A stretch of DNA of 64,000 bases, from positions 8,389-72,388 of the forward strand of contig NZ_JBCNNP010000018.1 of assembly GCF_039594315.1 (NCBI RefSeq), read 5' to 3'. The first letter of the stretch is position 1, and the number at the start of each line of letters is the position of its first letter. Shown here in pieces: positions 38,964 to 48,073 of the stretch. The notes under the pieces were generated by a model that did no database searches, was not told where the DNA came from, and saw only the letters and a list, made by a program, of their open reading frames with translations. Made by a program: the position numbers and the translations under genes. The DNA comes from Pantoea sp. Lineage in GTDB: Bacteria > Pseudomonadota > Gammaproteobacteria > Enterobacterales > Enterobacteriaceae.

Positions 38964-39048
38964 GCCGAAGTGGCGAAATCGGTAGACGCAGTTGATTCAA
39001 AATCAACCGTAGAGATACGTGCCGGTTCGAGTCCGGCCTTCGGCACCA
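38964..39048 (+). tRNA. leuX: tRNA-Leu (anticodon CAA)
   Basis: GCCGAAGTGGCGAAATCGGTAGACGCAGTTGATTCAAAATCAACCGTAGAGATACGTGCCGGTTCGAGTCCGGCCTTCGGCACCA. Type II tRNA with a long variable arm and a CAA anticodon loop. Essentially the E. coli leuX sequence as I recall it, with encoded CCA. Confidence 0.97.
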
Positions 39049-39340
39049 TCGATTGATGCAAAAAATCAAGTCGCTTACGAGCGGCTTTTTTTTTGCCTAA
39101 ATTTCGTCACTAACCTTCACCTCAAACTAACCTGTTTGAGAAATCTTCGCTGATTACTCCTCATGTCACTTTTTAAAGCTACGTGAAGCACATGTTCACT
39201 AGAAATGCAGGTCAAACATTTCATTAAATAAAATGTGATGCAGAGTGCAAACCTCAGATCAAAACCATAAATTAACTGTGTGTTATTTGTTTTTGTGTAT
39301 ACCTTTGTCGTAAGGGATGAAAAACATAAGGACGAGTAAA

Positions 39341-39826
39341 ATGCCAATTCCAGCAAATCTCTGGCTTAAAGATGACGGTGGTGCCGATATTCGTGGCTCC
39401 GTTGATGTGCAAAATCGCGAAGGTAGTATCGAAGTCACCGGTTTTTCTCATAATGTAAGGCTGCCAACCGATCCACAAACCGGTAAGCCGACTGGCACAC
39501 GTAAGCATGCGCCGATAATTATTCAAAAAGAGTTTGATGCATCTTCTCCTTATCTTTATAAGGCTGTTTCTACTGGGCAAAATTTAACTTCAGCAGAATT
39601 CAAGTGGTATCATATTAATGATGCTGGACAGGAAGTAGAATATTTCAATATTTTAATAGAAAGCGTGAAAATCATTGGTGTTTCACCAGTAATGCACGAT
39701 ACCAAAGATCCTGAAAAAGAGAAGCACAACCATCTGGAATGCGTTGAACTCGCCTACGAAAAAATAACGTGGAAATATTGTGACGGCAATATTATGTTCT
39801 CTGATAGTTGGAATGAGAGACCATAA
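39341..39826 (+). CDS. hcp: Type VI secretion tube protein Hcp (TssD), orphan copy
   Basis: MPIPANLWLKDDGGADIRGSVDVQNREGSIEV..SSPYLYKAVSTGQNL.SAEFKWYHINDAGQEVEYFN..HNHLE.VEL.YEKITWKY.DGNI..SDSWNE is the classic enterobacterial Hcp sequence pattern. The ATG at 39341 has an AAGGA SD. Confidence 0.93.
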   Translation: MPIPANLWLKDDGGADIRGSVDVQNREGSIEVTGFSHNVRLPTDPQTGKPTGTRKHAPIIIQKEFDASSPYLYKAVSTGQNLTSAEFKWYHINDAGQEVEYFNILIESVKIIGVSPVMHDTKDPEKEKHNHLECVELAYEKITWKYCDGNIMFSDSWNERP

Positions 39827-39829
39827 TTC

Positions 39830-40246
39830 ATGCGTTATCCTACTATGGCTGCATCTCCGCAGCCTCCATTTGATATTATCTCTTTCACTCCTCCTGGTGT
39901 TTCAATCGTCAATAATATGATGTTGGCTCGTTTGCACAAAGGACCGTCTGCCATGACATATGCATGGTTTTACAGTCAGGTAAAAGGCCATGGTCCCTGG
40001 GATTATAAAAATCAAAATGGCAGGCAGTATGCTAATTTTGGTAATTTTAATTATGGCGCTGTTGGACATGCGGCTGGTATAACCGAGTCAGTGCTATTGA
40101 GGGCTGCTGGGTGGGCGCAAAGTCGCGCTGGAACAAGCAATATTGAGTTTGGAAGTTGGTATGGTTTCAGCCCTTATGGTGACGATCCTGAAGACCAATA
40201 TTGGATAAGGGCAGGGATTGATTATGCTAAGCGCGCTGGATTTTAA
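39830..40246 (+). CDS. Small standalone polymorphic-toxin-like protein (Ntox44-like); candidate Hcp-dependent T6SS effector
   Basis: 138-aa ORF starting 3 nt after the hcp stop. Motif string GPWDYK(55-60) .. FGNFNYGAVG(70-79) .. LLRAAGWAQ(89-97) .. PYGDDPEDQ(115-123) matches my memory of 'polymorphic toxin type 44' C-terminal domains. No signal peptide. Confidence 0.6.
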   Translation: MRYPTMAASPQPPFDIISFTPPGVSIVNNMMLARLHKGPSAMTYAWFYSQVKGHGPWDYKNQNGRQYANFGNFNYGAVGHAAGITESVLLRAAGWAQSRAGTSNIEFGSWYGFSPYGDDPEDQYWIRAGIDYAKRAGF

Positions 40247-40652
40247 AAGAGTTTATTTTTTTGGTATCGTTTTATTCGGATTGATCGCGTATGGTATTTA
40301 TCTATTATTGAAAGTATCTCCACTCGAGCAGACAATAGTCTATAAGGAGAAAGTGAATAATCTGGCTAATCTATATGTTACAGAAGCCAATGCTGGTGCG
40401 ACAACGGGTTTTTCGTACAGATTTTATTTATACGATGGAAGTAAAAGTGATGAGGACTTTAAACGAAGCTTGATGGATACGGCTTCGCCATTTCTCATTA
40501 CTTCTGATAGTAAAGCATTAGATAAAATAAAAAACGGAGTGATTTATTTAAATATTAAAGGGCGTATTTATTCATTTAATAACAACCCTGCATATAGATA
40601 CAATGATTCTATTTATAAAATACCTGCCGTTATTACTGCCGCACCATACTGA
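40224..40652 (+). CDS. Candidate cognate immunity protein, N-terminally membrane-anchored
   Basis: The ATG at 40224 lies inside the toxin gene 3' end, a 23-nt overlap (or the TTG at 40218). It has a K/R-flanked TM helix (VYFFGIVLFGLIAYGIYLLL) followed by a domain of about 110 aa. No family assignment. Confidence 0.55.
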   Translation: MLSALDFKRVYFFGIVLFGLIAYGIYLLLKVSPLEQTIVYKEKVNNLANLYVTEANAGATTGFSYRFYLYDGSKSDEDFKRSLMDTASPFLITSDSKALDKIKNGVIYLNIKGRIYSFNNNPAYRYNDSIYKIPAVITAAPY

Positions 40653-40742: not shown

Positions 40743-42755
40743 TTACTGTTTTGAATAAAAGTCTGGCCAAGCATCATAATATGGATAACTAACTTTAACT
40801 TCACCCACATTAAAATCATATGTTAATTTATTGACACTTTTCCTAAATATACTTATAGATGGAAGTGACTCTAGATATCCTGTCAATTTATTTATGGTTA
40901 TTTTTCCTTCGCAAAATTTATATTTTTCCAATTCAGCTGAATTTTCCTTGCGTAAGTTTTCGTCATTAATTACTCCTTTGATGCGTTTAAAAAATCTATC
41001 TAAAGATAGTTGATCTACCACATAGCAGCCATTTGCAAAATATTTCCCACCTAAAGGTGATGTGGTGACTATTATTTTAATCACTCCTTCATGCTTCCAT
41101 GTATAGGGTAAGTTAAAGGCTTTTCTTATTTCTACAAGATGAGTGAGGTAATGAGCAGAATATCTGTTGATTTGTTCCGTGAAAGACCGTTTTTTTCTGC
41201 TAAATTCTTTGATATGAAAAGTATCACCTAAAATATCGTAAGCATTTTGATAATATTTATTGAAGAAAATTGGTTGACCATTAGATTTGAGCTCTACGAA
41301 GACTATGTAATTATCTATGATTATTACGCAATCACATTCATAATCGTTGTGAGACGATAAATTTAAAGCTGTTATTCCAGATGAATTTACAAGACTAATG
41401 AATTCATCTTCATGAAACCTTCCCTTTATTGATGTGCTAATTTTCTTAGCATTGAATAATGATAGTAATGAACGACTAGATGAGCTAGTAGAAAGAAGAG
41501 CTGGCATTATAAAAAAACCATCATTACATGGGATTAATGGACAGTCATTAATATCCAATGATTCCTTAGTGAAAGTGAAATAATCTACTAATAGTTTTGA
41601 ACATTGGTGAGATAGAGATTCTTTTTCGAAAAACAAAATCCAATCTTCCCTACTTTTTCTGATCAGCCAGTTAGATTGATTCGACAGTTTATTTTTTCTT
41701 TTTAATCTTTTTTTATGTTCTTTTATTGCAAGTGAAACCAAAGCTTCATAAGCATGCACCCAATCGAATATACTAATCCCACCATAGCTTTCAAACATAT
41801 TTTCAGGGCTTATGTTTTCAAAGCTGGTCAATAGCATTGCATGGTAAATATCATTTTTAGTTAAATATGATGGAGCCCATTTCCTTATCTCACTAATAAA
41901 GCTTGGTTTTTTAGATATGTAGTTATTTAAATATTCATAAGTTTCCATGCTTTTCATCATTACTCTTGACCTAGAAACTTCATAGTCGCGGTAAAGATTA
42001 TCTTCACAAACTTCTATTTTGAGTTCATTTTCATTTATCAACGCTAATTCTGCATTACATAGCCTGAAAAAATCAGTGGTTCTAGATAATGAATCATAGC
42101 GATTCCAACTTTCATAGACATCTAACATTTTAACGAAATCAGGCATGGAAATTTTTTCGTCAATATCCATTTTTTTCTCTGATTTTGAAAATGCTAATGA
42201 GAAAATTTTCCCAGTGTAATGAACTATTTCATCGATCGCTCTGCTTAGCGTTTTGATATCATGGTGTGTAAAGTCATCTCCTCGAGGGATATTTGATGGG
42301 TAAAAAACAAAAGGTAATATTTTTTTTAATTTTTTATGAGGGGTTCTGCCGAGTATGGCAATATAAATTGAAATAAAGTTTTCGGAAAAAAGAGATATTA
42401 TAAAAAGTTCTTTTTCTGATATTCCATTTCCCCATATATTATTTATCTTTAAATGTTCAAAGAATTGGTTATATAAATGACACATTTTTTTGTATTGATT
42501 ATTTTCTTTAAGTATTATTTCATTATCACTTGGGAATTTTTCCATTAACAATCTAAAATATGGTGTCATTTTTTCATTAAGTTTTTCAACACTGAGTGAT
42601 GAATTTCTTTTGTAATAGATGCCTGAAATTCTAATGATATTTAGTGCGTCATTTACATTTGCATTGTCATTTTTTAGATAAGAGATGAATTTATTCTTAA
42701 AAAGGATAGGGTCTTTTGCTAACTTAAGTATATATGCTGAATCATATAATTTCAT
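40743..42755 (-). CDS. Orphan 670-aa protein with C-terminal PD-(D/E)xK nuclease-like core; function unknown (candidate defence protein)
   Basis: Uninterrupted 2-kb ORF in very AT-rich DNA. Residues 445-490, GRFHEDEFISLVNSSGITALNLSSHNDYECDCVIIIDNYIVFVELK, give E449-E451, D475 and E488-x-K490 in the canonical spacing. The N-terminal ~430 aa are unrecognisable to me. Confidence 0.75.
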   Translation of the reverse strand: MKLYDSAYILKLAKDPILFKNKFISYLKNDNANVNDALNIIRISGIYYKRNSSLSVEKLNEKMTPYFRLLMEKFPSDNEIILKENNQYKKMCHLYNQFFEHLKINNIWGNGISEKELFIISLFSENFISIYIAILGRTPHKKLKKILPFVFYPSNIPRGDDFTHHDIKTLSRAIDEIVHYTGKIFSLAFSKSEKKMDIDEKISMPDFVKMLDVYESWNRYDSLSRTTDFFRLCNAELALINENELKIEVCEDNLYRDYEVSRSRVMMKSMETYEYLNNYISKKPSFISEIRKWAPSYLTKNDIYHAMLLTSFENISPENMFESYGGISIFDWVHAYEALVSLAIKEHKKRLKRKNKLSNQSNWLIRKSREDWILFFEKESLSHQCSKLLVDYFTFTKESLDINDCPLIPCNDGFFIMPALLSTSSSSRSLLSLFNAKKISTSIKGRFHEDEFISLVNSSGITALNLSSHNDYECDCVIIIDNYIVFVELKSNGQPIFFNKYYQNAYDILGDTFHIKEFSRKKRSFTEQINRYSAHYLTHLVEIRKAFNLPYTWKHEGVIKIIVTTSPLGGKYFANGCYVVDQLSLDRFFKRIKGVINDENLRKENSAELEKYKFCEGKITINKLTGYLESLPSISIFRKSVNKLTYDFNVGEVKVSYPYYDAWPDFYSKQ

Positions 42756-43344
42756 CTTTCTCTATCCTTGAGTTATTATGTTGATTTTTAATGATGGTAT
42801 ATATTTACATATTTAATAGCTAACAGCTAGAAACGCACAACCTCTACGCTTTCTTAACCAGAACCGAACCGGGATCGTTGAGCGTGCCTGTTGCCAATAA
42901 ATCGTTACGTGTGTTTAAAGTCGCAATGGATATTTCCAGAAGTCTGCGCAATGCGAGTAGTAGAAGGAAGCGAATAACAGCTTTAAACAATGACTTTCCA
43001 TTCTGCTGCCAAAACCAAGGAAAACATGTTCTTTAGCAGAAGAGGAAATTTTGCGGGGGTCTCAGCCGCTTTGCAGCGGGTCAGGACACTTTACCGTCAT
43101 GGACGAACCTGTAATCAGGAAGTGGGATGCGATTTCGTTGCCAAAATCCCTGTAACCATCCGAGCTAACAATGCTACGCGGTATATTTAGTGTTTGCAAT
43201 TAGCGGCTGCAAACGAACTAATTGTTCAAAGCTGATCCACATCAATCCAGGCGGCATTTCCCCATTAACCAAGACCTCGCCTTTAAGATCCTGTTAAGAA
43301 CTCTTCGTATAATAGCGCCCAACGATTTCAACCAAGAGTTCATC

Positions 43345-43722
43345 ATGAAAAACACCCTGATTACCCTGTCGATTCTTTTCTCGGCGTTAACCATCACTTC
43401 CGTGCAAGCAGCAACCGGATGTGAAGCTAAGAAGCAAGATATCCAACAAGAGCTGGCGATGGCGCGTGAACATGGCAATGCGGAACGTGTTGCGGGTTTG
43501 GAAAAAGCGCTGCGTGAAACCAACGAGCACTGCACCGAGAGCAGCTTGCTGAAACAGCGCCAGGAAAAAGTGGCTGAGAAGCAGTTGAAAGTACAGGAGC
43601 GCGAGCAGGATTTAGCCAAGGCGCAAGCTGAAGGTAGCAGCAAAAAGATTGAAAAACAGCAGCGTAAATTGGCTGAAGCGCGTGAAGAGTTGAAAGAAGC
43701 GCAGGATGCGTTAGCGCAGTAA
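43345..43722 (+). CDS. Secreted coiled-coil protein, DUF1090-like
   Basis: From MKNTLITLSILFSALTITSVQAATGCEAKK.. with a signal peptide, two Cys and a K/E/Q-rich helix. The ORF-track start at 43222 is probably upstream read-through. Confidence 0.65.
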   Translation: MKNTLITLSILFSALTITSVQAATGCEAKKQDIQQELAMAREHGNAERVAGLEKALRETNEHCTESSLLKQRQEKVAEKQLKVQEREQDLAKAQAEGSSKKIEKQQRKLAEAREELKEAQDALAQ

Positions 43723-43741
43723 CATCTGCGATGCAGCACAG

Positions 43742-43770
43742 AAAAACCGCGGTTATTGCCGCGGTTTTTT
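43742..43770. terminator. Bidirectional rho-independent terminator
   Basis: AAAAACCGCGGTTATTGCCGCGGTTTTTT between the convergent DUF1090-like gene and flhE. Confidence 0.85.
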
Positions 43771-43771
43771 G

Positions 43772-44182
43772 TTATTTTCGTAACCGATATTCCACGGTGA
43801 CTTGATTACTCAATAGCGTCAGCGGTGGCGATAAATTACCTCGCACCGATGAGTAATATTCAAAACGCAGCGGTCCGCCCGCCGGGAAACTCACCGGCAA
43901 CGGCATTTCGCCGCTCAATCCTGATAATGGCAGGCAGCGATTGCCGCCGCACACTTTGATCATAAAACCCATCGGCGTGGGGCCATCTGGCGAGATCTTC
44001 CACGTCAACTGTTTGGCGATTGCGCCCGCCGGGAGTGCCGAAGTAGGGTGCACCGGCTGGCTTTTGACCACTTGCTGGCCGCGCGTCATCATGCCGCCAA
44101 AGCTCTGGCTGCTCCAAGAACCGTCGCTTGCCAATGCCAGTGGCGAAATCACTAAACTCAGCAGCAGCAGGCGACGCATCAT
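43772..44182 (-). CDS. flhE: Flagellar protein FlhE
   Basis: About 136-aa secreted protein (MMRRLLLLSLVISPLALA..) directly downstream of flhA. Its start overlaps the flhA stop (ATGA). Confidence 0.8.
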   Translation of the reverse strand: MMRRLLLLSLVISPLALASDGSWSSQSFGGMMTRGQQVVKSQPVHPTSALPAGAIAKQLTWKISPDGPTPMGFMIKVCGGNRCLPLSGLSGEMPLPVSFPAGGPLRFEYYSSVRGNLSPPLTLLSNQVTVEYRLRK

Positions 44183-46272
44183 GCTTTGCCACCAATCACC
44201 CACGTCATGCGCACGTTGCGCTGGGTGTTGATTTCCTGACTGGAGAGCACCGCCATTTGCGGGAAGATGCGGCGCAAATAACGCGACAGCATCAGACGCA
44301 GTGATGGATTTACCAGCAGCACCGGCGGCGCACCCAATCCTTCCTGATGCATCAAGGCTTGTTCGGTCTGCTTCATCAAACTCTCAGCAATGCCGGGTTC
44401 GATGGCGCTACCGCTCTGGGTCGCTTGCACCAGCAACTGTTCCAGCGACAGATCCAGACCGATCACCTGCACATCCTCTTCACCGGGGAACCATTGCTGC
44501 GTGATGGCGCGTGACAAGCGTGCACGCACGCGCGCCGTTAATTCATCAGCATCACTGTTGCTGGTGGCAAACTCCGCCAACGTATCAATGATGGTGCGCA
44601 TATCGCGGATTGGCACACGTTCTGACAACAGATTTTGCAGCACCTTATGCAGCGTCGTCAGGCTGATCACCGCAGGAATCAAATCCTCAACCAGCTTCGG
44701 CGCATGCTTGGTGAGCTGATCCAGCAACTGTTGTGCTTCCTGGCGGCCAAACAGTTCTTCGGTATGCGTTGAGATCAAATGATTCAGATGCGTTGCCACC
44801 ACCGAACTCGGATCAACTACCGTGTAACCGAGTGTTTGCGCCAGTTCGCGATGCACTTCATCAATCCACAACGCAGGCAGACCAAAGGTCGGCTCAGTAC
44901 ACACCGTGCCCGGCACATCGCCTTCCGCGCAGCCAGGATTGATCGCCATCCAGCGATCCGGTTGGATCTCGCCGTGACCAATCTCCACGCCTTTCAGCAA
45001 GATGCGATAGCGTGTTGGCGGCAGATCCAGGTTGTCACGGATATGCACCGCGGGTGGCAAGAAGCCCATCTGCTGCGCGAATTTCTTACGAATGCCGCGC
45101 ACACGCGTCAGCAACTGACCGTTTTGCTCCTGATCAACCATTGGAATGAGGCGATAGCCCACTTCGAGGCCAAGCTCATCTTCCATCTGCACATCAGACC
45201 AGGTGGCTTCGTTGACCTGCGCGGTTTCCGCTTCCGGCAGCGAGATATCGCTGGTGTTCGAACCTTTGGCTTTATTTTCCGCTTCACGGCCGCGCATCCA
45301 CCAGGCCACGCCCAGCAGCACCGCAGTGAACAGCAGGAAAACAAAGTTCGGCATACCTGGAATCATGCCCAGCAGGCCGATCACCGCAGCCGCCAGCATC
45401 AGCACGCGTGGCGAGCTAAACAGCTGACCAATCATCTGCTCGCCGACATCCTGATCGTTAACCACGCGTGTCACAACCACGCCCGCGGCGGTAGAGATTA
45501 CCAGGCCGGGAATCTGCGCGACCAGACCATCACCAATGGTCAGCAAGGTGTAAGTTTCACCTGCCATGCCAACCGACATGTCGTGCTGCATTACGCCAAT
45601 AATCAAACCGCCAATCACATTGATCGCCATGATCATCAGGCCAGCGATCGCATCACCACGCACAAATTTACTGGCACCATCCATCGAACCGTAGAAATCG
45701 GCTTCCTGTGTCACCTCTTTACGACGGCGTTTGGCTTCTTCTTCGCCAATCAAACCGGCATTAAGATCGGCATCGATCGCCATCTGTTTGCCGGGCATGC
45801 CATCAAGAGTGAAGCGCGCGCCGACTTCAGCAATACGTCCCGCCCCTTTGGTGATCACCATAAAGTTGATGATAATCAGGATGATGAAGACGATGATGCC
45901 GATGGCAAAATTGCCGCCGACCAGGAAGTGGCCGAAAGCTTCAACCACCTGACCCGCAGCGGCAGAACCGGTGTGGCCGTGCATCAGGATCACACGGGTG
46001 GATGCGACGTTCAGTGCCAGACGCAATAGCGTCGAAAACAGCAACACCGTCGGGAACGCCGAGAACTCCAGCGTCTTCTGGGTGAACATCGCCACCAACA
46101 GAATCATGATCGACAGGACAATGTTGAAGGTAAAAAACAGATCCAGCACGAAGGTGGGCAGCGGCAAGATCATCATCGCAAGGATGGTCATGATCAGCAC
46201 TGGACCGGCCAGCACTTGCCATTGGGTCTCCTTCAGACCAGGTAAACGTAGTTTTGTGGCGATATTAGCCAT
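44179..46272 (-). CDS. flhA: Flagellar type III export apparatus protein FlhA
   Basis: From MANIATKLRLPGLKETQWQVLAGPVLIM.. High similarity along the whole length to the E. coli FlhA I recall (FHFLVGGNFAIG, ITKGAGRIAEVGARFTLDGMPGKQMAIDADLNAG). Confidence 0.96.
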   Translation of the reverse strand: MANIATKLRLPGLKETQWQVLAGPVLIMTILAMMILPLPTFVLDLFFTFNIVLSIMILLVAMFTQKTLEFSAFPTVLLFSTLLRLALNVASTRVILMHGHTGSAAAGQVVEAFGHFLVGGNFAIGIIVFIILIIINFMVITKGAGRIAEVGARFTLDGMPGKQMAIDADLNAGLIGEEEAKRRRKEVTQEADFYGSMDGASKFVRGDAIAGLMIMAINVIGGLIIGVMQHDMSVGMAGETYTLLTIGDGLVAQIPGLVISTAAGVVVTRVVNDQDVGEQMIGQLFSSPRVLMLAAAVIGLLGMIPGMPNFVFLLFTAVLLGVAWWMRGREAENKAKGSNTSDISLPEAETAQVNEATWSDVQMEDELGLEVGYRLIPMVDQEQNGQLLTRVRGIRKKFAQQMGFLPPAVHIRDNLDLPPTRYRILLKGVEIGHGEIQPDRWMAINPGCAEGDVPGTVCTEPTFGLPALWIDEVHRELAQTLGYTVVDPSSVVATHLNHLISTHTEELFGRQEAQQLLDQLTKHAPKLVEDLIPAVISLTTLHKVLQNLLSERVPIRDMRTIIDTLAEFATSNSDADELTARVRARLSRAITQQWFPGEEDVQVIGLDLSLEQLLVQATQSGSAIEPGIAESLMKQTEQALMHQEGLGAPPVLLVNPSLRLMLSRYLRRIFPQMAVLSSQEINTQRNVRMTWVIGGKA

Positions 46273-47416
46273 CACTCTCACTCTCTTGTGCAAAGTCCAG
46301 CGCCGCCGGAACCGGCAGATCTTTTGGTTGCTGCGGGCGAATGCCATAGCCTTTACGCCAGCGGCGCAGGCCATAAACCCAAGCTAAAACTTCAGCTACG
46401 GCGTTATACAGTTCAGTGGGTACTGGCGCGCCGGGTTCGCAATGGCGGTACAACGCACGCGCCAGTGGCGGGGCTTCCAGCATCGGAATACGGCTCTCTT
46501 CTGCCAGTTCACGGATGCGCAGGGCGATCAGACCACTGCCTTTCGCGACGACGACCGGCGCGCCCATGCTGCCTTCCTGGTATTTTAACGCCACCGAATA
46601 ATGTGTCGGGTTGTTGACCACTACGTCGGCGGTCGGTACATCGGTCATCATGCGTTGCTGCGCCATTTGACGCTGTATTTGGCGAACACGACCTTTAAGT
46701 TGTGGATCACCTTCCTGCTTCTTGAACTCGTCCTTCACTTCCTGACGCGTCATGCGCAGCTTTTTCCAGTTGCTCCACAGCTGATAAATCACATCAAACG
46801 CCACCATTGGAATCAGCGACAGGATGATGACCAGCATGCAACCAATCAGGATGCTGCTGATATCACTTAATGCCATACCCAGCGGTTCAAACATCAACCC
46901 GATAAACTTGCTCTTGTTGTGCAGCAGAAACAGGCCGCCGCCGATACCCGCCAGTGACACTTTGAGAATGGCTTTCACCATTTCCGAAAGCATCTGCGCG
47001 GAGAACAGACGTTTGATGCCGCTTATCGGGTTGAGCTTTTTCAGGTTGAGCTTGATTGCCTTGCCGCTCAGATTCAGGCCACCAATGATCAACGGTGCGC
47101 TGACGGCGGTGATATACAAACCACCCACCAGCGGTAACAACGCCAAAAAAGCGATACCGAGTAACGCTCCGGCTTGATCCAGCATATGTTGGGGATCGCG
47201 TACCAACAGGCGATCAAAGGTCAGGCCGTTGTGCAGCAGGTGCATCAATTTCCCCACCAGAAAATCACCGCCCGCCAGCATCAAGCTGCAGCCAACCAGC
47301 AACATCGCGAGGGTGGTGAGCTCACGCGATCGCGGAACCTGCCCCTCTTCCCGCGCTTTCTGTTTTCGCTGGGGTGTGGGGTCTTCCGTTTTTTCGTTAT
47401 CACTCTCTTCAGACAT
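46265..47416 (-). CDS. flhB: Flagellar type III export apparatus protein FlhB
   Basis: 383-aa ORF starting MSEESDNEKTEDPTPQRKQKAREEGQVPRSREL, with the NPTH autocleavage site. Confidence 0.96.
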   Translation of the reverse strand: MSEESDNEKTEDPTPQRKQKAREEGQVPRSRELTTLAMLLVGCSLMLAGGDFLVGKLMHLLHNGLTFDRLLVRDPQHMLDQAGALLGIAFLALLPLVGGLYITAVSAPLIIGGLNLSGKAIKLNLKKLNPISGIKRLFSAQMLSEMVKAILKVSLAGIGGGLFLLHNKSKFIGLMFEPLGMALSDISSILIGCMLVIILSLIPMVAFDVIYQLWSNWKKLRMTRQEVKDEFKKQEGDPQLKGRVRQIQRQMAQQRMMTDVPTADVVVNNPTHYSVALKYQEGSMGAPVVVAKGSGLIALRIRELAEESRIPMLEAPPLARALYRHCEPGAPVPTELYNAVAEVLAWVYGLRRWRKGYGIRPQQPKDLPVPAALDFAQESESDG

Positions 47417-47434
47417 GGCGTTCGCCTGGCATCA

Positions 47435-48073
47435 TCAGAAGCCGAGGGACTCCAGCAGGTCATCAACCTGTTCCTGAGAAGCCGCAATACCTTCCGCGGT
47501 GGCGTTGATTTGTGGGCCGTTTTTCAGCTGATCTTCACCTTCAATGGCCCGCGCTTCACGCTCACCCATGTTTTCCACCAGCACGCTAATCAGCTCAGTT
47601 TCTACTTTAGATATCACCACCATCAGGCTTTGCAGCACCTGGCCAGTGAGATCCTGGAAATCTTGCGCCATCATGATTTCAGTCAGCTGGCGATTGGTTT
47701 GCTGGGTCATCTCTGGCACCTGATGCAGGAACGCGCGCGTCTCTTTCACCAGCTCACGAGCATCTTCCAGCGGCTGGGGATTGGCAAACCACGCATCCCA
47801 GCGTTCACTGAGTGCACCGGCGTTCTCACTCATTGCGTCCTGCAAGGGGCGCGCCACTTCCACGCTGGTTAATGCGCGATCGGCGGCCTGCGAGGTTTTA
47901 CCCACTACATAGTTGAGGCGATCGCGGGTGTTAGGAAAGGCATCTGCCACTTCCATAATTGCCTGTTCAAGGCCGAGGTTAGCCATGCTGTCACGTAGCA
48001 AACGCGTCAGCTGGCCGATACGCAGAAACAGATCTTTGGGATCATCTGCCTGCAAATTTAATTCTGGATCCAT
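47435..48073 (-). CDS. cheZ: Chemotaxis phosphatase CheZ
   Basis: 212-aa ORF with MMAQDFQDLTGQV (catalytic Gln region) and the C-terminal CheY-binding peptide ..QEQVDDLLESLGF. Confidence 0.93.
   Translation of the reverse strand: MDPELNLQADDPKDLFLRIGQLTRLLRDSMANLGLEQAIMEVADAFPNTRDRLNYVVGKTSQAADRALTSVEVARPLQDAMSENAGALSERWDAWFANPQPLEDARELVKETRAFLHQVPEMTQQTNRQLTEIMMAQDFQDLTGQVLQSLMVVISKVETELISVLVENMGEREARAIEGEDQLKNGPQINATAEGIAASQEQVDDLLESLGF

What the first reader, a model, noticed from the sequence alone, without database searches (positions are those of the whole stretch)
40743..42755. Orphan 670-aa AT-rich ORF with a PD-(D/E)xK nuclease core: candidate undescribed single-gene defence system
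Seen in sequence:
- A 2-kb uninterrupted ORF lies in the most AT-rich DNA of the window.
- It is inside the tRNA-Leu(CAA) island, convergent with the hcp module, and has its own AT-rich upstream region (42756-42835).
- Residues 445-490 read GRFHEDEFISLVNSSGITALNLSSHNDYECDCVIIIDNYIVFVELK. This gives an acidic helix (E449/D450/E451), then D475 and E488-L-K490 on two consecutive hydrophobic strands, 13 residues apart.

That layout is the canonical PD-(D/E)xK restriction-endonuclease-fold signature, as found in NERD, Shedu/DUF4263 and Cap4-type nuclease effectors.

I cannot match the preceding ~430 residues or the ~110-aa tail to any family I know. The protein has no Walker motifs, TM segments or HTH that I can see.

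Inference: a large unknown sensor-like region fused to a nuclease effector, encoded as a single gene in a tRNA-linked hotspot next to interbacterial-competition genes, is the architecture typical of anti-phage or anti-plasmid defence proteins.
Basis: partly seen in the sequence, partly recalled or inferred. Interest (0 to 1): 0.85.

Follow-up and report, generated by a model that had tools for sequence, protein, structure and literature searches.

The report
Unnamed single-gene nuclease, likely phage defence
This is a real, horizontally acquired 670-residue protein: a restriction-enzyme-type nuclease attached to a large helical region that resembles nothing known. It is not an orphan, since it belongs to an unnamed family found in many bacteria, usually next to known anti-phage systems, so it is a good but untested candidate for a new one-gene defence system.

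Summary
The ORF (40743-42755, minus strand, 670 aa) is real. Chance of no stop is about 2e-26, its GC is 29.6% against a ~55% background, and it lies beside tRNA-Leu(CAA).

The PD-(D/E)xK call holds:
- D475, E488, K490, Q528 and D581 are invariant in 52 relatives of 14-41% identity.
- A pLDDT-90 AlphaFold model puts them on the expected alpha-beta-beta-beta-alpha-beta core.
- The only sequence and fold similarities, all weak, are to NERD, Card1/Can2, McrC, Hjc and Shedu nucleases.

"Orphan" is wrong. A profile search finds 401 clusters of mostly full-length, 600-730-aa relatives in Enterobacterales, Pseudoalteromonas, Bacillus, Brevibacillus and Clostridia. An E. coli relative is in 360 of 5,426 complete genomes, at the same leuX hotspot.

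There is no conserved partner gene. In 7-9 of 16 independent loci the neighbours are known defence systems: Zorya II, Gabija, Lamassu, Type I R-M, ThsB-TIR, pPIWI, AbiE. Other copies sit at prophage ends, in Tn7 cargo or on plasmids.

No Pfam, NCBIfam, PADLOC or PHROG model covers the family. The N-terminal ~390 residues match nothing in PDB or BFVD.

Best reading: an undescribed single-gene sensor-nuclease defence protein (about 0.6). Its relation to the recently reported ZwsA could not be tested. No phenotype is shown.

The parts
40743..42755 (-). Complete CDS, 670 aa (78.7 kDa, pI 8.7), including the stop codon at 40743-40745
   Evidence: ORF list. Chance of an open frame this long is about 2e-26. 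Full-length homologues at 34-44% identity.
41577..42755 (-). Residues 1-393: all-helical N-terminal region specific to the family (two helical blocks separated by a hairpin at 236-248). Proposed sensor or regulatory module. E125 and R264 are near-invariant.
   Evidence: AlphaFold model, pLDDT about 90. No Pfam, NCBIfam, PADLOC or PHROG hit. No PDB or BFVD structural match at E<=1e-3. Mean pairwise identity 0.19-0.21 against 0.33 for the nuclease; E125 50/52, R264 51/52.
41427..41576 (-). Residues 394-443: conserved pre-nuclease segment with motif D401-x2-D404-C-P406 on a hairpin (407-416), plus P418 and S432
   Evidence: P406 52/52, D401 51/52, D404 50/52. With the nuclease, the most conserved region of the protein (0.33 mean pairwise identity).
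40986..41426 (-). Residues 444-590: PD-(D/E)xK (NERD-like) nuclease core
   Evidence: Alpha-beta-beta-beta-alpha-alpha-beta topology. Pfam NERD E=0.036 at 466-529. PADLOC PDC-M29B 2.5e-5 at 468-527. Other members hit NERD (best 2e-4), Card1_endonuc (4.7e-4) and CARF_PDDEXK (1.2e-6). Foldseek: Hjc prob 0.97, R2 restriction-like endonuclease prob 0.91, McrC prob 0.60.
41286..41333 (-). Codons D475 to K490: putative catalytic D-x12-E-x-K on consecutive strands (472-480 and 483-490)
   Evidence: D475, E488 and K490 are invariant in 52/52 sequences of 14-41% identity. E449 (50/52), Q528 (52/52) and D581 (52/52) complete the conserved set.
40746..40985 (-). Residues 591-670: small alpha/beta C-terminal domain (helices 610-640, hairpin 642-661) with conserved R591, G617 and K623. 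Possible nucleic-acid-binding module (inference).
   Evidence: Model; conservation; no family match.
42756..42835 (-). AT-rich upstream region with a Shine-Dalgarno-like AAGGA about 9 nt before the ATG. The promoter is not defined.
   Evidence: Sequence. The consensus scan found no sigma-70 match upstream of the ATG, and the region's total of matches was not above the shuffled expectation.
38964..39048 (+). Context: tRNA-Leu(CAA), anchor of the low-GC island (about 39.1-42.85 kb). This is the same tRNA species (leuX) that anchors the E. coli homologue.
   Evidence: ARAGORN and Rfam. E. coli loci L001 and L007.
39317..40652 (+). Context, not part of the system: Hcp / Ntox44 toxin / probable immunity cassette, convergent with the gene
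   Evidence: Pfam T6SS_HCP 6e-33 and Ntox44 8e-18; TIGR03344 2e-44. Not conserved next to homologues elsewhere.

Best explanation
The gene encodes a stand-alone, horizontally transferred immune nuclease, that is, a one-protein anti-phage or anti-mobile-element defence system.

Proposed parts:
- Residues about 395-590 form a metal-dependent PD-(D/E)xK (NERD-like) endonuclease. The proposed active site is E449, D475, E488, K490 and Q528.
- The family-specific all-helical N-terminal 390 residues are proposed to sense infection or select the target and to gate the nuclease.
- The small C-terminal domain may help bind nucleic acid.

On infection the protein would cut nucleic acid. This could be the invader's own genome (direct immunity, as reported for the NERD protein ZwsA on ssRNA phage genomes) or nucleic acid indiscriminately (abortive infection).

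Shown here: the gene is real and intact, the nuclease fold and the invariant catalytic residues are present, the family spans phyla, the gene is acquired horizontally and alone, and it keeps company with defence systems and mobile elements.

Inferred: catalytic activity, the substrate (DNA or RNA), the trigger, the roles of the N- and C-terminal regions, and the defence phenotype itself.
For: Gene and fold:
- Intact ORF with all family-invariant residues.
- AlphaFold model with pLDDT 90.4 and pTM 0.89, showing the canonical core.
- Sequence hits to nuclease families only, and only over residues 466-529.
- Foldseek hits of appreciable probability are, apart from one protein of unknown function, PD-(D/E)xK nucleases: McrC, Can2, Hjc, R2 restriction-like endonuclease, AF1548, Shedu, HindIII.

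Accessory and mobile:
- Gene GC is 7-28 points below its flanks in every genome checked, including the window itself.
- The E. coli relative is present in only 360 of 5,426 complete genomes.
- Distribution across Gammaproteobacteria and Firmicutes is sparse.
- Relatives occur on 4 Bacillales plasmids.

Context:
- E. coli: leuX | gene | phosphorothioate-dependent restriction enzyme | Zorya II. leuX is the most occupied E. coli defence hotspot, #37 (PMC12707154).
- Enterobacter: Type I R-M and ThsB-TIR (PADLOC 4e-157) upstream of the gene, an HNH gene downstream.
- L009: the gene is followed by Type I R-M, Lamassu (LmuA 2e-121, LmuB 2e-219) and PemK.
- L016: Tn7-like cargo with Gabija (GajA 6e-181, GajB 1e-178), SLFN and WYL.
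- B. cereus: prophage end, with pPIWI (5e-178).
- Pseudoalteromonas: AbiEi/AbiEii.
- C. beijerinckii: prophage end followed by PIN, PDDEXK_4, Mrr, caspase, TIR and a DEAD/MZB helicase.
- L017: integrase element with KAP NTPase, Mrr and PIN.

Single gene: no gene is conserved next to it across loci, and the E. coli and Enterobacter HNH neighbours are unrelated.

Domain pattern: the effector is more conserved than the N-terminus (0.33 against 0.19-0.21 identity), as is typical of sensor-effector immune proteins (general knowledge).

Precedent: stand-alone NERD-domain ZwsA defends against ssRNA phages, and mutating E535, D567, E580 or K582 impaired its defence activity (bioRxiv 10.64898/2026.04.06.716636).
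Against: - No experiment of any kind.
- The window's own island holds no known defence gene, only a T6SS Hcp-toxin cassette.
- 7 of 16 loci show no recognisable defence neighbour. These include Izhakiella, Dryocola, Xenorhabdus and Priestia.
- The background rate of defence neighbours was not measured here. The binomial P of 5e-4 assumes a 10% baseline.
- All similarity to known nucleases is weak: no Foldseek hit at E<=1e-3, and the Pfam NERD score is below the gathering threshold.
- No trigger, partner or regulator is identified.
- The sampled loci were chosen partly for contig length, not at random.
Confidence: 0.6

Rival explanations
1. The nuclease serves the mobile elements that carry it rather than the host. 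For example it could be a superinfection-exclusion, anti-competitor-element or element-maintenance (addiction-like) nuclease of prophages, transposons, plasmids and islands.
For: Several copies are element cargo:
- Directly after the lysis cassette of prophages in B. cereus, R. hungatei and C. beijerinckii.
- Inside Tn7-like cargo.
- Between IS5 copies on a B. mycoides plasmid.
- Beside an integrase with an HTH_17 gene.
- At the end of a CP4-like element in E. coli strain E5.
Against: - This overlaps heavily with defence, because element-borne defence cargo sits in the same places.
- No relative was found in 50,697 phage records or on IMG/VR contigs with the queries used.
- Izhakiella, Dryocola and the window carry the gene without any element genes.
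- No antitoxin-like or methylase partner is conserved.
Confidence: 0.17
2. It is an accessory nucleic-acid repair, recombination or RNA-processing nuclease with a cellular (non-immune) role, for example a structure-specific resolvase-like enzyme.
For: - Among the highest-probability Foldseek matches are Holliday-junction resolvases (Hjc, prob 0.97).
- Some loci are embedded among ordinary metabolic genes.
Against: - Presence is patchy (6.6% of E. coli genomes).
- GC is strongly deviant in every host.
- Locations are hotspots, prophages and plasmids.
- There is no conserved linkage to repair genes.
- The resolvase matches cover only about 47 columns of the shared core fold.
Confidence: 0.1
3. 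It belongs to the interbacterial-competition module next to it, as a T6SS-linked toxin, accessory or immunity factor.
For: Toxin cassettes lie near four family members:
- Hcp-Ntox44 in the window.
- Tlde1 in Enterobacter.
- DUF4123-VasX in Xenorhabdus.
- WXG100 toxin with SMI1/KNR4 immunity on the B. mycoides plasmid.
Against: - The gene is convergent with the Hcp operon, not part of it.
- The toxin families differ at every locus, and 12 of 16 loci have none.
- No PAAR, MIX, Rhs, LXG, DUF4123 or signal sequence is present in the protein.
- At 670 aa it is far too large for an immunity protein.
- The E. coli copies have no T6SS neighbour.
Confidence: 0.05
4. The nuclease fold is retained but catalytically dead, and the protein acts only as a binding or scaffolding protein.
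For: No activity data exist, and similarity to characterised nucleases is weak.
Against: Every canonical catalytic position (D475, E488, K490) plus Q528 and D581 is invariant in 52/52 sequences at 14-41% overall identity. That is the opposite of what pseudo-enzymes show.
Confidence: 0.04

Closest known systems
ZwsA (Zowangsin) of Pseudomonas aeruginosa, a stand-alone NERD-domain RNA endonuclease that defends against ssRNA phages (bioRxiv 10.64898/2026.04.06.716636)
   Same: - Single-gene system carried in genomic islands.
- Large multidomain protein with a long, mainly helical N-terminal part, a NERD-type nuclease and a small C-terminal domain.
- Catalytic E...D-x12-E-x-K (E535/D567/E580/K582 against E449/D475/E488/K490).
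   Different: - ZwsA is 716 aa with K582, so 134 residues follow the Lys, against 180 here. The proportions therefore differ.
- Its authors annotate VHS, DUF647 and S4 domains, none of which is detected here.
Homology is therefore untested.
NERD domain (Pfam PF08378) proteins
   Same: It is one of only two Pfam hits, both sub-threshold, and it falls on the predicted catalytic strands. UniRef labels two relatives 'NERD domain-containing', and NCBI names one 'nuclease-related domain-containing protein'.
   Different: - The window protein scores 15 bits against the gathering cut-off of 22.1.
- Only 5 of 52 relatives reach E<=0.01.
- NERD covers about 110 aa, while about 560 aa of this protein lie outside it.
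Card1/Can2 CARF-nuclease effectors of type III CRISPR
   Same: The nuclease cores are similar: PADLOC CARF_PDDEXK hits in 7 relatives (best 1.2e-6), Pfam Card1_endonuc in 1, and Foldseek Can2/Cdn1 among the top matches.
   Different: There is no CARF domain, no CRISPR or cyclase neighbourhood, and the N-terminus is all-helical and unrelated.
Shedu (SduA, DUF4263) and other single-gene PD-(D/E)xK defence nucleases
   Same: The logic is the same: one protein, with a variable N-terminal sensing region fused to a PD-(D/E)xK nuclease, carried in defence islands. The Shedu nuclease domain is a weak Foldseek match.
   Different: There is no DUF4263 or PADLOC Shedu hit, and the N-terminal architecture is different.
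McrC (nuclease subunit of the Type IV restriction enzyme McrBC)
   Same: It is the top Foldseek PDB hit with the good model (7vsr_M at E 0.068; 6hz4_N at prob 0.60).
   Different: The hit is not significant. There is no McrB GTPase partner at any locus, and no sequence similarity.

Membership tests
PD-(D/E)xK nuclease superfamily | Core alpha-beta-beta-beta-alpha-beta fold | tested here: met
   AlphaFold model (pLDDT 90.4): H444-458, E463-468, E472-480, E483-490, H498-509, H525-546, E557-564.
PD-(D/E)xK nuclease superfamily | Acidic residue on strand 2 and (D/E)-x-K on strand 3, conserved in the family | tested here: met
   D475, E488 and K490 are 52/52 invariant, and E449 on the preceding helix is 50/52.
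PD-(D/E)xK nuclease superfamily | Significant structural similarity to solved members | tested here: inconclusive
   The higher-probability matches are nearly all PD-(D/E)xK nucleases (Hjc prob 0.97, R2 restriction-like endonuclease prob 0.91, McrC prob 0.60), but no hit reaches E<=1e-3, and query coordinates of the matches are not reported.
PD-(D/E)xK nuclease superfamily | Divalent-metal-dependent phosphodiester cleavage | not testable with these tools
   Needs purified protein.
NERD (Pfam PF08378) | Score at or above Pfam's gathering threshold | tested here: not met
   15 bits against a cut-off of 22.1, E=0.036, residues 466-529. 5 of 52 relatives reach E<=0.01, best 2e-4. It is NERD-like, not a demonstrable member.
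Shedu (DUF4263) | DUF4263 / SduA profile match | tested here: not met
   No Pfam or PADLOC hit in the protein or in 52 relatives.
Cap4-type CBASS effector | SAVED or other cyclic-oligonucleotide sensor domain and a CD-NTase operon | tested here: not met
   No such domain in the protein, and no cyclase among the window neighbours. The only Cap4_nuclease Pfam hit is a neighbouring Lamassu LmuA at L009.
Card1/Can2 (CARF-nuclease) | N-terminal CARF domain and a type III CRISPR context | tested here: not met
   Pfam and PADLOC report no hit outside the nuclease segment, and the N-terminus is all-helical in the model.
PADLOC candidate PDC-M29 | Full-length match to PDC-M29B together with its partner gene | tested here: not met
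   The match covers profile positions 68-123 of 164 and protein residues 468-527 only. No conserved partner gene exists.
ZwsA / Zowangsin | Sequence homology over the whole protein | not testable with these tools
   The sequence is not in the paper or its supplement. The last broad search for the long branch was unproductive.
ZwsA / Zowangsin | Stand-alone gene, NERD-type E/D/ExK site | tested here: met
   No conserved neighbour across 16 loci. The D-x12-E-x-K spacing is the same.
ZwsA / Zowangsin | Same size and domain proportions (716 aa, K582) | tested here: not met
   670 aa with K490 here. Family members held have the Lys at about 490-515.
Anti-phage defence gene (guilt-by-association criterion) | Family members enriched next to known defence systems across unrelated genomes | tested here: inconclusive
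   7 clear and 2 probable of 16 independent loci. This is suggestive, but the sample is small, not random, and no background rate was measured.
Anti-phage defence gene | Protection against phage on expression | not testable with these tools
   An experiment is required.

The most novel reading that the evidence does not exclude
This is a founding member of an undescribed single-gene defence family unrelated to ZwsA. The family spans Gammaproteobacteria and Firmicutes and includes a copy in about 7% of E. coli genomes at defence hotspot #37. Its about 390-residue all-helical N-terminal module has no sequence or structural relative, and would be a new kind of infection sensor gating a NERD-like nuclease.
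Probability: 0.4. Interest if true: 0.62.

Novelty: new variant of a known kind. Interest (0 to 1): 0.5.

Why it matters
If the gene does defend, it adds a compact one-gene immune system. That system is already sitting unannotated (as 'hypothetical protein') in hundreds of sequenced E. coli genomes, at the species' busiest defence hotspot beside Zorya II and a phosphorothioate-dependent restriction enzyme.

The helical N-terminal region has no known relative. It would be a new handle on how bacteria recognise infection.

The family is easy to test, because E. coli alleles and standard phage panels are available. It would also close a gap in the defence-annotation tools: no PADLOC, Pfam or NCBIfam model covers it.

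The ZwsA precedent makes it worth including ssRNA phages and RNA substrates, which most screens omit.

If it does not defend, it is simply one more island-borne nuclease of unknown role.

Tried and rejected
- Sequence search of the PDB with the protein and with a 52-sequence profile: nothing, even at E<=10.
- First AlphaFold run with 14 close homologues: poor (pLDDT 64), and its Foldseek hits were weak. It was superseded by the 52-sequence run.
- Foldseek with the good model against PDB and BFVD: no hit at E<=1e-3 and no full-length or N-terminal match.
- PHROGs: no family.
- The search for related loci with the 52-sequence alignment failed because no stretch was conserved enough. With an 11-sequence alignment it found 1 metagenome locus and no viral contig.
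- The genome-contig scan found only 3 species. The search is limited by its patterns, so this is not a true census.
- The second and third homologous-protein searches (alignments A2 and A5) added nothing, because close relatives or the word index saturated the candidates.
- Looking for ZwsA: its sequence, accession and locus tag are absent from the text and supplement, and a residue-number match among the held proteins was negative.
- Literature searches for PDC-M29 and for the E. coli protein accessions: no paper.
- Fe-S or Zn cluster idea from C405/C410/C476: rejected, because those Cys are not conserved outside Enterobacterales.
- Two-gene system with the adjacent HNH enzyme: rejected. The E. 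coli and Enterobacter HNH proteins are unrelated, and most loci lack one.
- att-site repeat of the tRNA 3' end at the right island border: none found, and there is no integrase in the island.
- Associated non-coding RNA: only the tRNA.
- Promoter and terminator scan: nothing above the shuffled expectation.
Full report
**Observation.**
- At the gene's own base composition the chance of 670 codons without a stop is about 2e-26, and no other frame of the stretch stays open beyond 74 codons.
- Gene GC is 0.296, and the 1-kb bins between 41 and 43 kb (0.30-0.31) are the lowest in a window that otherwise runs at about 0.55.
- tRNA-Leu(CAA) lies at 38964-39048. Between it and the ORF is an Hcp / Ntox44 / small-protein cassette on the plus strand, convergent with the ORF.
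- Residues 445-490 read exactly as quoted.
- The island has no integrase, no repeat of the tRNA end and no non-coding RNA family other than the tRNA.

**Not an orphan.** A word-indexed search found 68 proteins, nearly all aligned over 96-99% of the query at 34-44% identity. They come from E. coli (one 90% cluster holds 3,303 sequences), Izhakiella, Xenorhabdus and an Escherichia sp., and all are called 'hypothetical'.
- An exhaustive HMMER profile search of 1.84 billion representatives found 401 clusters at E<=1e-3 (226 at <=1e-10). Most are 600-730 aa and match over their whole length.
- Named sources include Bacillus cereus/thuringiensis, Brevibacillus brevis, Clostridium beijerinckii, Ruminiclostridium hungatei and Pseudoalteromonas. 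Four Bacillales plasmids also carry relatives.
- The family is sparse. Only 3 species representatives were picked up by a pattern-limited scan, with one JGI metagenome contig, no IMG/VR viral contig and no phage record for the B. cereus member.

**Nuclease domain.** Several lines agree on a PD-(D/E)xK core.
- In a 52-sequence alignment (14-41% identity to the window protein) the only invariant columns are P406, G445, D475, E488, K490, Q528 and D581. E449, D401, D404, C474, R531, R591, E125 and R264 are near-invariant.
- AlphaFold with 14 close homologues gave a poor model (pLDDT 64). With the 52-sequence alignment it gave pLDDT 90.4 and pTM 0.89.
- The model places E449 on helix 444-458, D475 on strand 472-480 and E488/K490 on strand 483-490. 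Helices 498-509 and 525-546 (carrying Q528) and strand 557-564 follow. This is the PD-(D/E)xK core.
- Sequence profiles agree weakly but consistently, and only over this segment: Pfam NERD E=0.036 (below threshold) at 466-529 and PADLOC PDC-M29B 2.5e-5 at 468-527.
- Among the 52 relatives: NERD in 5 (best 2e-4), Card1_endonuc in 1, CARF_PDDEXK in 7 (best 1.2e-6) and viperin-associated NERD in 1.
- Foldseek found nothing at E<=1e-3 in PDB or BFVD. The matches with appreciable probability are, with one exception of unknown function (3fov), PD-(D/E)xK nucleases: Hjc (0.97), R2 restriction-like endonuclease (0.91), McrC (0.60), AF1548, Can2, Shedu, HindIII and phage 'restriction endonuclease' models.
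- I therefore accept the fold assignment (about 0.9). I call the domain NERD-like rather than NERD, because the Pfam threshold is not met.

**The rest of the protein.**
- Residues 1-393 are all-helical with one small hairpin. They have no hit in Pfam, NCBIfam, PADLOC or PHROGs, no PDB sequence hit even with the profile, and no structural match.
- They are alignable across the whole family with few gaps but are less conserved than the nuclease (0.19-0.21 against 0.33 mean pairwise identity). Two near-invariant residues stand out, E125 and R264.
- The segment just before the nuclease (394-443, motif D401-x2-D404-x-P406) is as conserved as the nuclease and probably belongs to it functionally (inference).
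- The C-terminal about 75 residues form a small alpha/beta domain with conserved G617 and K623.
- There is no Walker A motif. One very hydrophobic helix (117-135) lies in a high-confidence part of the model and carries near-invariant E125, so it is probably a core helix rather than a membrane segment (inference).
- The cysteines that look like a cluster in the Enterobacterales proteins are not conserved in distant members.

**Context.** I examined 16 independent loci. No neighbour is conserved, so the gene is a single-gene unit. Its GC is 7-23 points below the flanks in every other genome checked and about 25 points below in the window itself.

| Locus | Setting |
|---|---|
| E. coli O145 | tRNA-Leu(CAA) \| gene \| phosphorothioate-dependent restriction endonuclease \| type II Zorya \| STY4851-family |
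| E. coli E5 | end of a CP4-like element (antirestriction, RadC, CbtA/CbeA) \| gene \| the same restriction enzyme \| HNH |
| Enterobacter | Type I R-M and ThsB-like TIR upstream of the gene, HNH downstream |
| L009 | gene, then Type I R-M, Lamassu and PemK |
| L016 | Tn7-like cargo with SLFN and Gabija upstream of the gene and WYL downstream |
| B. cereus | directly after a prophage holin and endolysin, followed by pPIWI |
| C. beijerinckii | prophage end, followed by PIN_8, PDDEXK_4, Mrr, caspase-like, TIR and a DEAD/MZB helicase |
| Pseudoalteromonas | AbiEi/AbiEii |
| L017 (probable) | integrase, KAP NTPase, Mrr, PIN |
| Brevibacillus (probable) | after smpB, beside an unknown 584-aa gene plus a D12 methylase |
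| R. hungatei | prophage end |
| B. mycoides plasmid | between IS5 copies |
| Window, Izhakiella, Dryocola, Xenorhabdus, Priestia plasmid | no recognisable defence neighbour |

- The E. coli site is the leuX locus, hotspot #37 of the E. coli defence-island catalogue and the most occupied of 41, with defence genes in 97% of isolates (PMC12707154; source study PMC10121019).
- The E. coli gene is in 360 of 5,426 complete genomes and is always annotated 'hypothetical protein'.
- Seven clear hits in 16 loci would have P of about 5e-4 if 10% of random genes had such neighbours. That baseline is assumed, not measured, and the loci were not sampled at random.

**Mechanism.** The best-supported reading is a one-protein sensor-effector immune nuclease.
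- The NERD-like domain cuts nucleic acid with E449/D475/E488/K490.
- The family-specific helical N-terminus senses infection or selects the target and gates the enzyme.
- The C-terminal domain may bind nucleic acid.
- Whether it attacks invader DNA or RNA directly, or kills the infected cell, cannot be told from sequence.
- The closest functional precedent I found is ZwsA of P. aeruginosa. It is a stand-alone island-borne protein with an N-terminal helical part, a NERD domain (E535/D567/E580/K582, the same D-x12-E-x-K spacing) and a small C-terminal domain. It cleaves PP7 and MS2 RNA but not lacZ mRNA, and it protects only against ssRNA phages (bioRxiv 10.64898/2026.04.06.716636).
- ZwsA is 716 aa with the Lys at 582, so its proportions differ from this family (Lys at about 490-515).

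**Rivals.**
- A role for the carrying elements rather than the host overlaps with defence and is the strongest rival.
- A housekeeping repair or processing nuclease is contradicted by the patchy, low-GC, hotspot distribution.
- Membership of the adjacent T6SS toxin cassette fails for several reasons. The gene is convergent with the cassette. Toxin families differ between loci, and 12 of 16 loci have none. The protein has no delivery domain.
- A dead enzyme is contradicted by 52/52 invariance of the catalytic residues.

**Novelty and score.**
- The effector and the overall logic (one protein, a variable N-terminus plus a PD-(D/E)xK nuclease, carried in defence islands) are a known kind. Shedu and ZwsA are examples.
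- The family itself is not modelled in Pfam, NCBIfam, PADLOC v2.0.0 or PHROGs, and I found no paper naming it. A 2026 E. coli-wide screen explicitly excluded single-gene candidates (PMC13069673).
- The N-terminal module has no detectable relative.
- I rate it a new variant of a known kind with interest 0.5. It is a solid, cheaply testable candidate, but there is no phenotype, and many such candidates exist.

Noticed in passing
window 39317-40652 (+): An orphan Hcp (TssD) gene is followed by an Ntox44 toxin-domain protein and an overlapping 144-aa hydrophobic protein with no family. It looks like an Hcp-linked T6SS effector and immunity cassette, inserted at tRNA-Leu in the same low-GC island.
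   Followed up: partly
L006 15833-16348 (Tlde1); L003 15364-20174 (DUF4123 and VasX_N); L021 11857-13554 (SMI1/KNR4 and WXG100); window 39317-40652: Four of 16 family loci have an interbacterial toxin or immunity cassette within a few kb of the gene. The toxin family differs each time. This may simply reflect shared 'conflict-system' hotspots, but the recurrence across T6SS and T7SS is notable.
   Followed up: partly
L017 17005-19475; L019 12129-16284: A PIN_8 protein (437-475 aa) and a small Mrr_cat protein recur near family members in two unrelated metagenomic or clostridial loci. They may be a co-travelling module or a separate candidate system.
   Followed up: no
L001 12660-13532; L007 11660-12532; L008 11660-12532: In all three E. 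coli loci inspected, the gene is followed about 600 bp downstream by the same convergent phosphorothioate-sensing SBD-HNH (ScoMcrA-like) restriction endonuclease. This is probably one clonal island (99% identity across genomes), because the pairing is absent elsewhere.
   Followed up: partly
window residues 117-135 of the protein (nt about 42351-42407): This is a very hydrophobic helix (Kyte-Doolittle 1.99) with a near-invariant Glu (E125, 50/52) in its middle. It lies in a high-confidence part of the model, and its role is unknown.
   Followed up: partly
L009 306-2835: Three consecutive genes with no Pfam hit lie directly upstream of a 22%-identical relative, in an island that also carries Type I R-M, Lamassu and PemK. 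They are uncharacterised island cargo.
   Followed up: no
L003 12398-13315: The gene next to the Xenorhabdus homologue is a metallo-beta-lactamase-fold protein that hits the Pfam Anti-Pycsar_Apyc1 family. It could be an ordinary cellular MBL hydrolase or a cyclic-nucleotide-degrading enzyme.
   Followed up: no
window 39061-39129 (+): A sub-threshold Rfam hit (AaHKsRNA82, 34 bits against a gathering score of 51.4) lies just after the tRNA. It coincides with a hairpin-plus-T-run just after the tRNA (apparently its terminator, by eye) and is probably not a separate RNA.
   Followed up: partly
L020 5573-9474: In Brevibacillus the relative sits just downstream of smpB, where the tmRNA integration hotspot would be expected. 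With it are an unannotated 584-aa gene and a D12-class adenine methylase, possibly a Type II R-M pair.
   Followed up: no
window 43222-48073: The right flank of the island is core genome: a DUF1090 protein, then flagellar export and chemotaxis genes (FlhA-like 44179-46374, FlhB-like 46265-47416, CheZ-like 47435-48073, judged from their translations). The tRNA flank is only 89-91% identical to E. coli, so the host is another member of the Enterobacterales.
   Followed up: no
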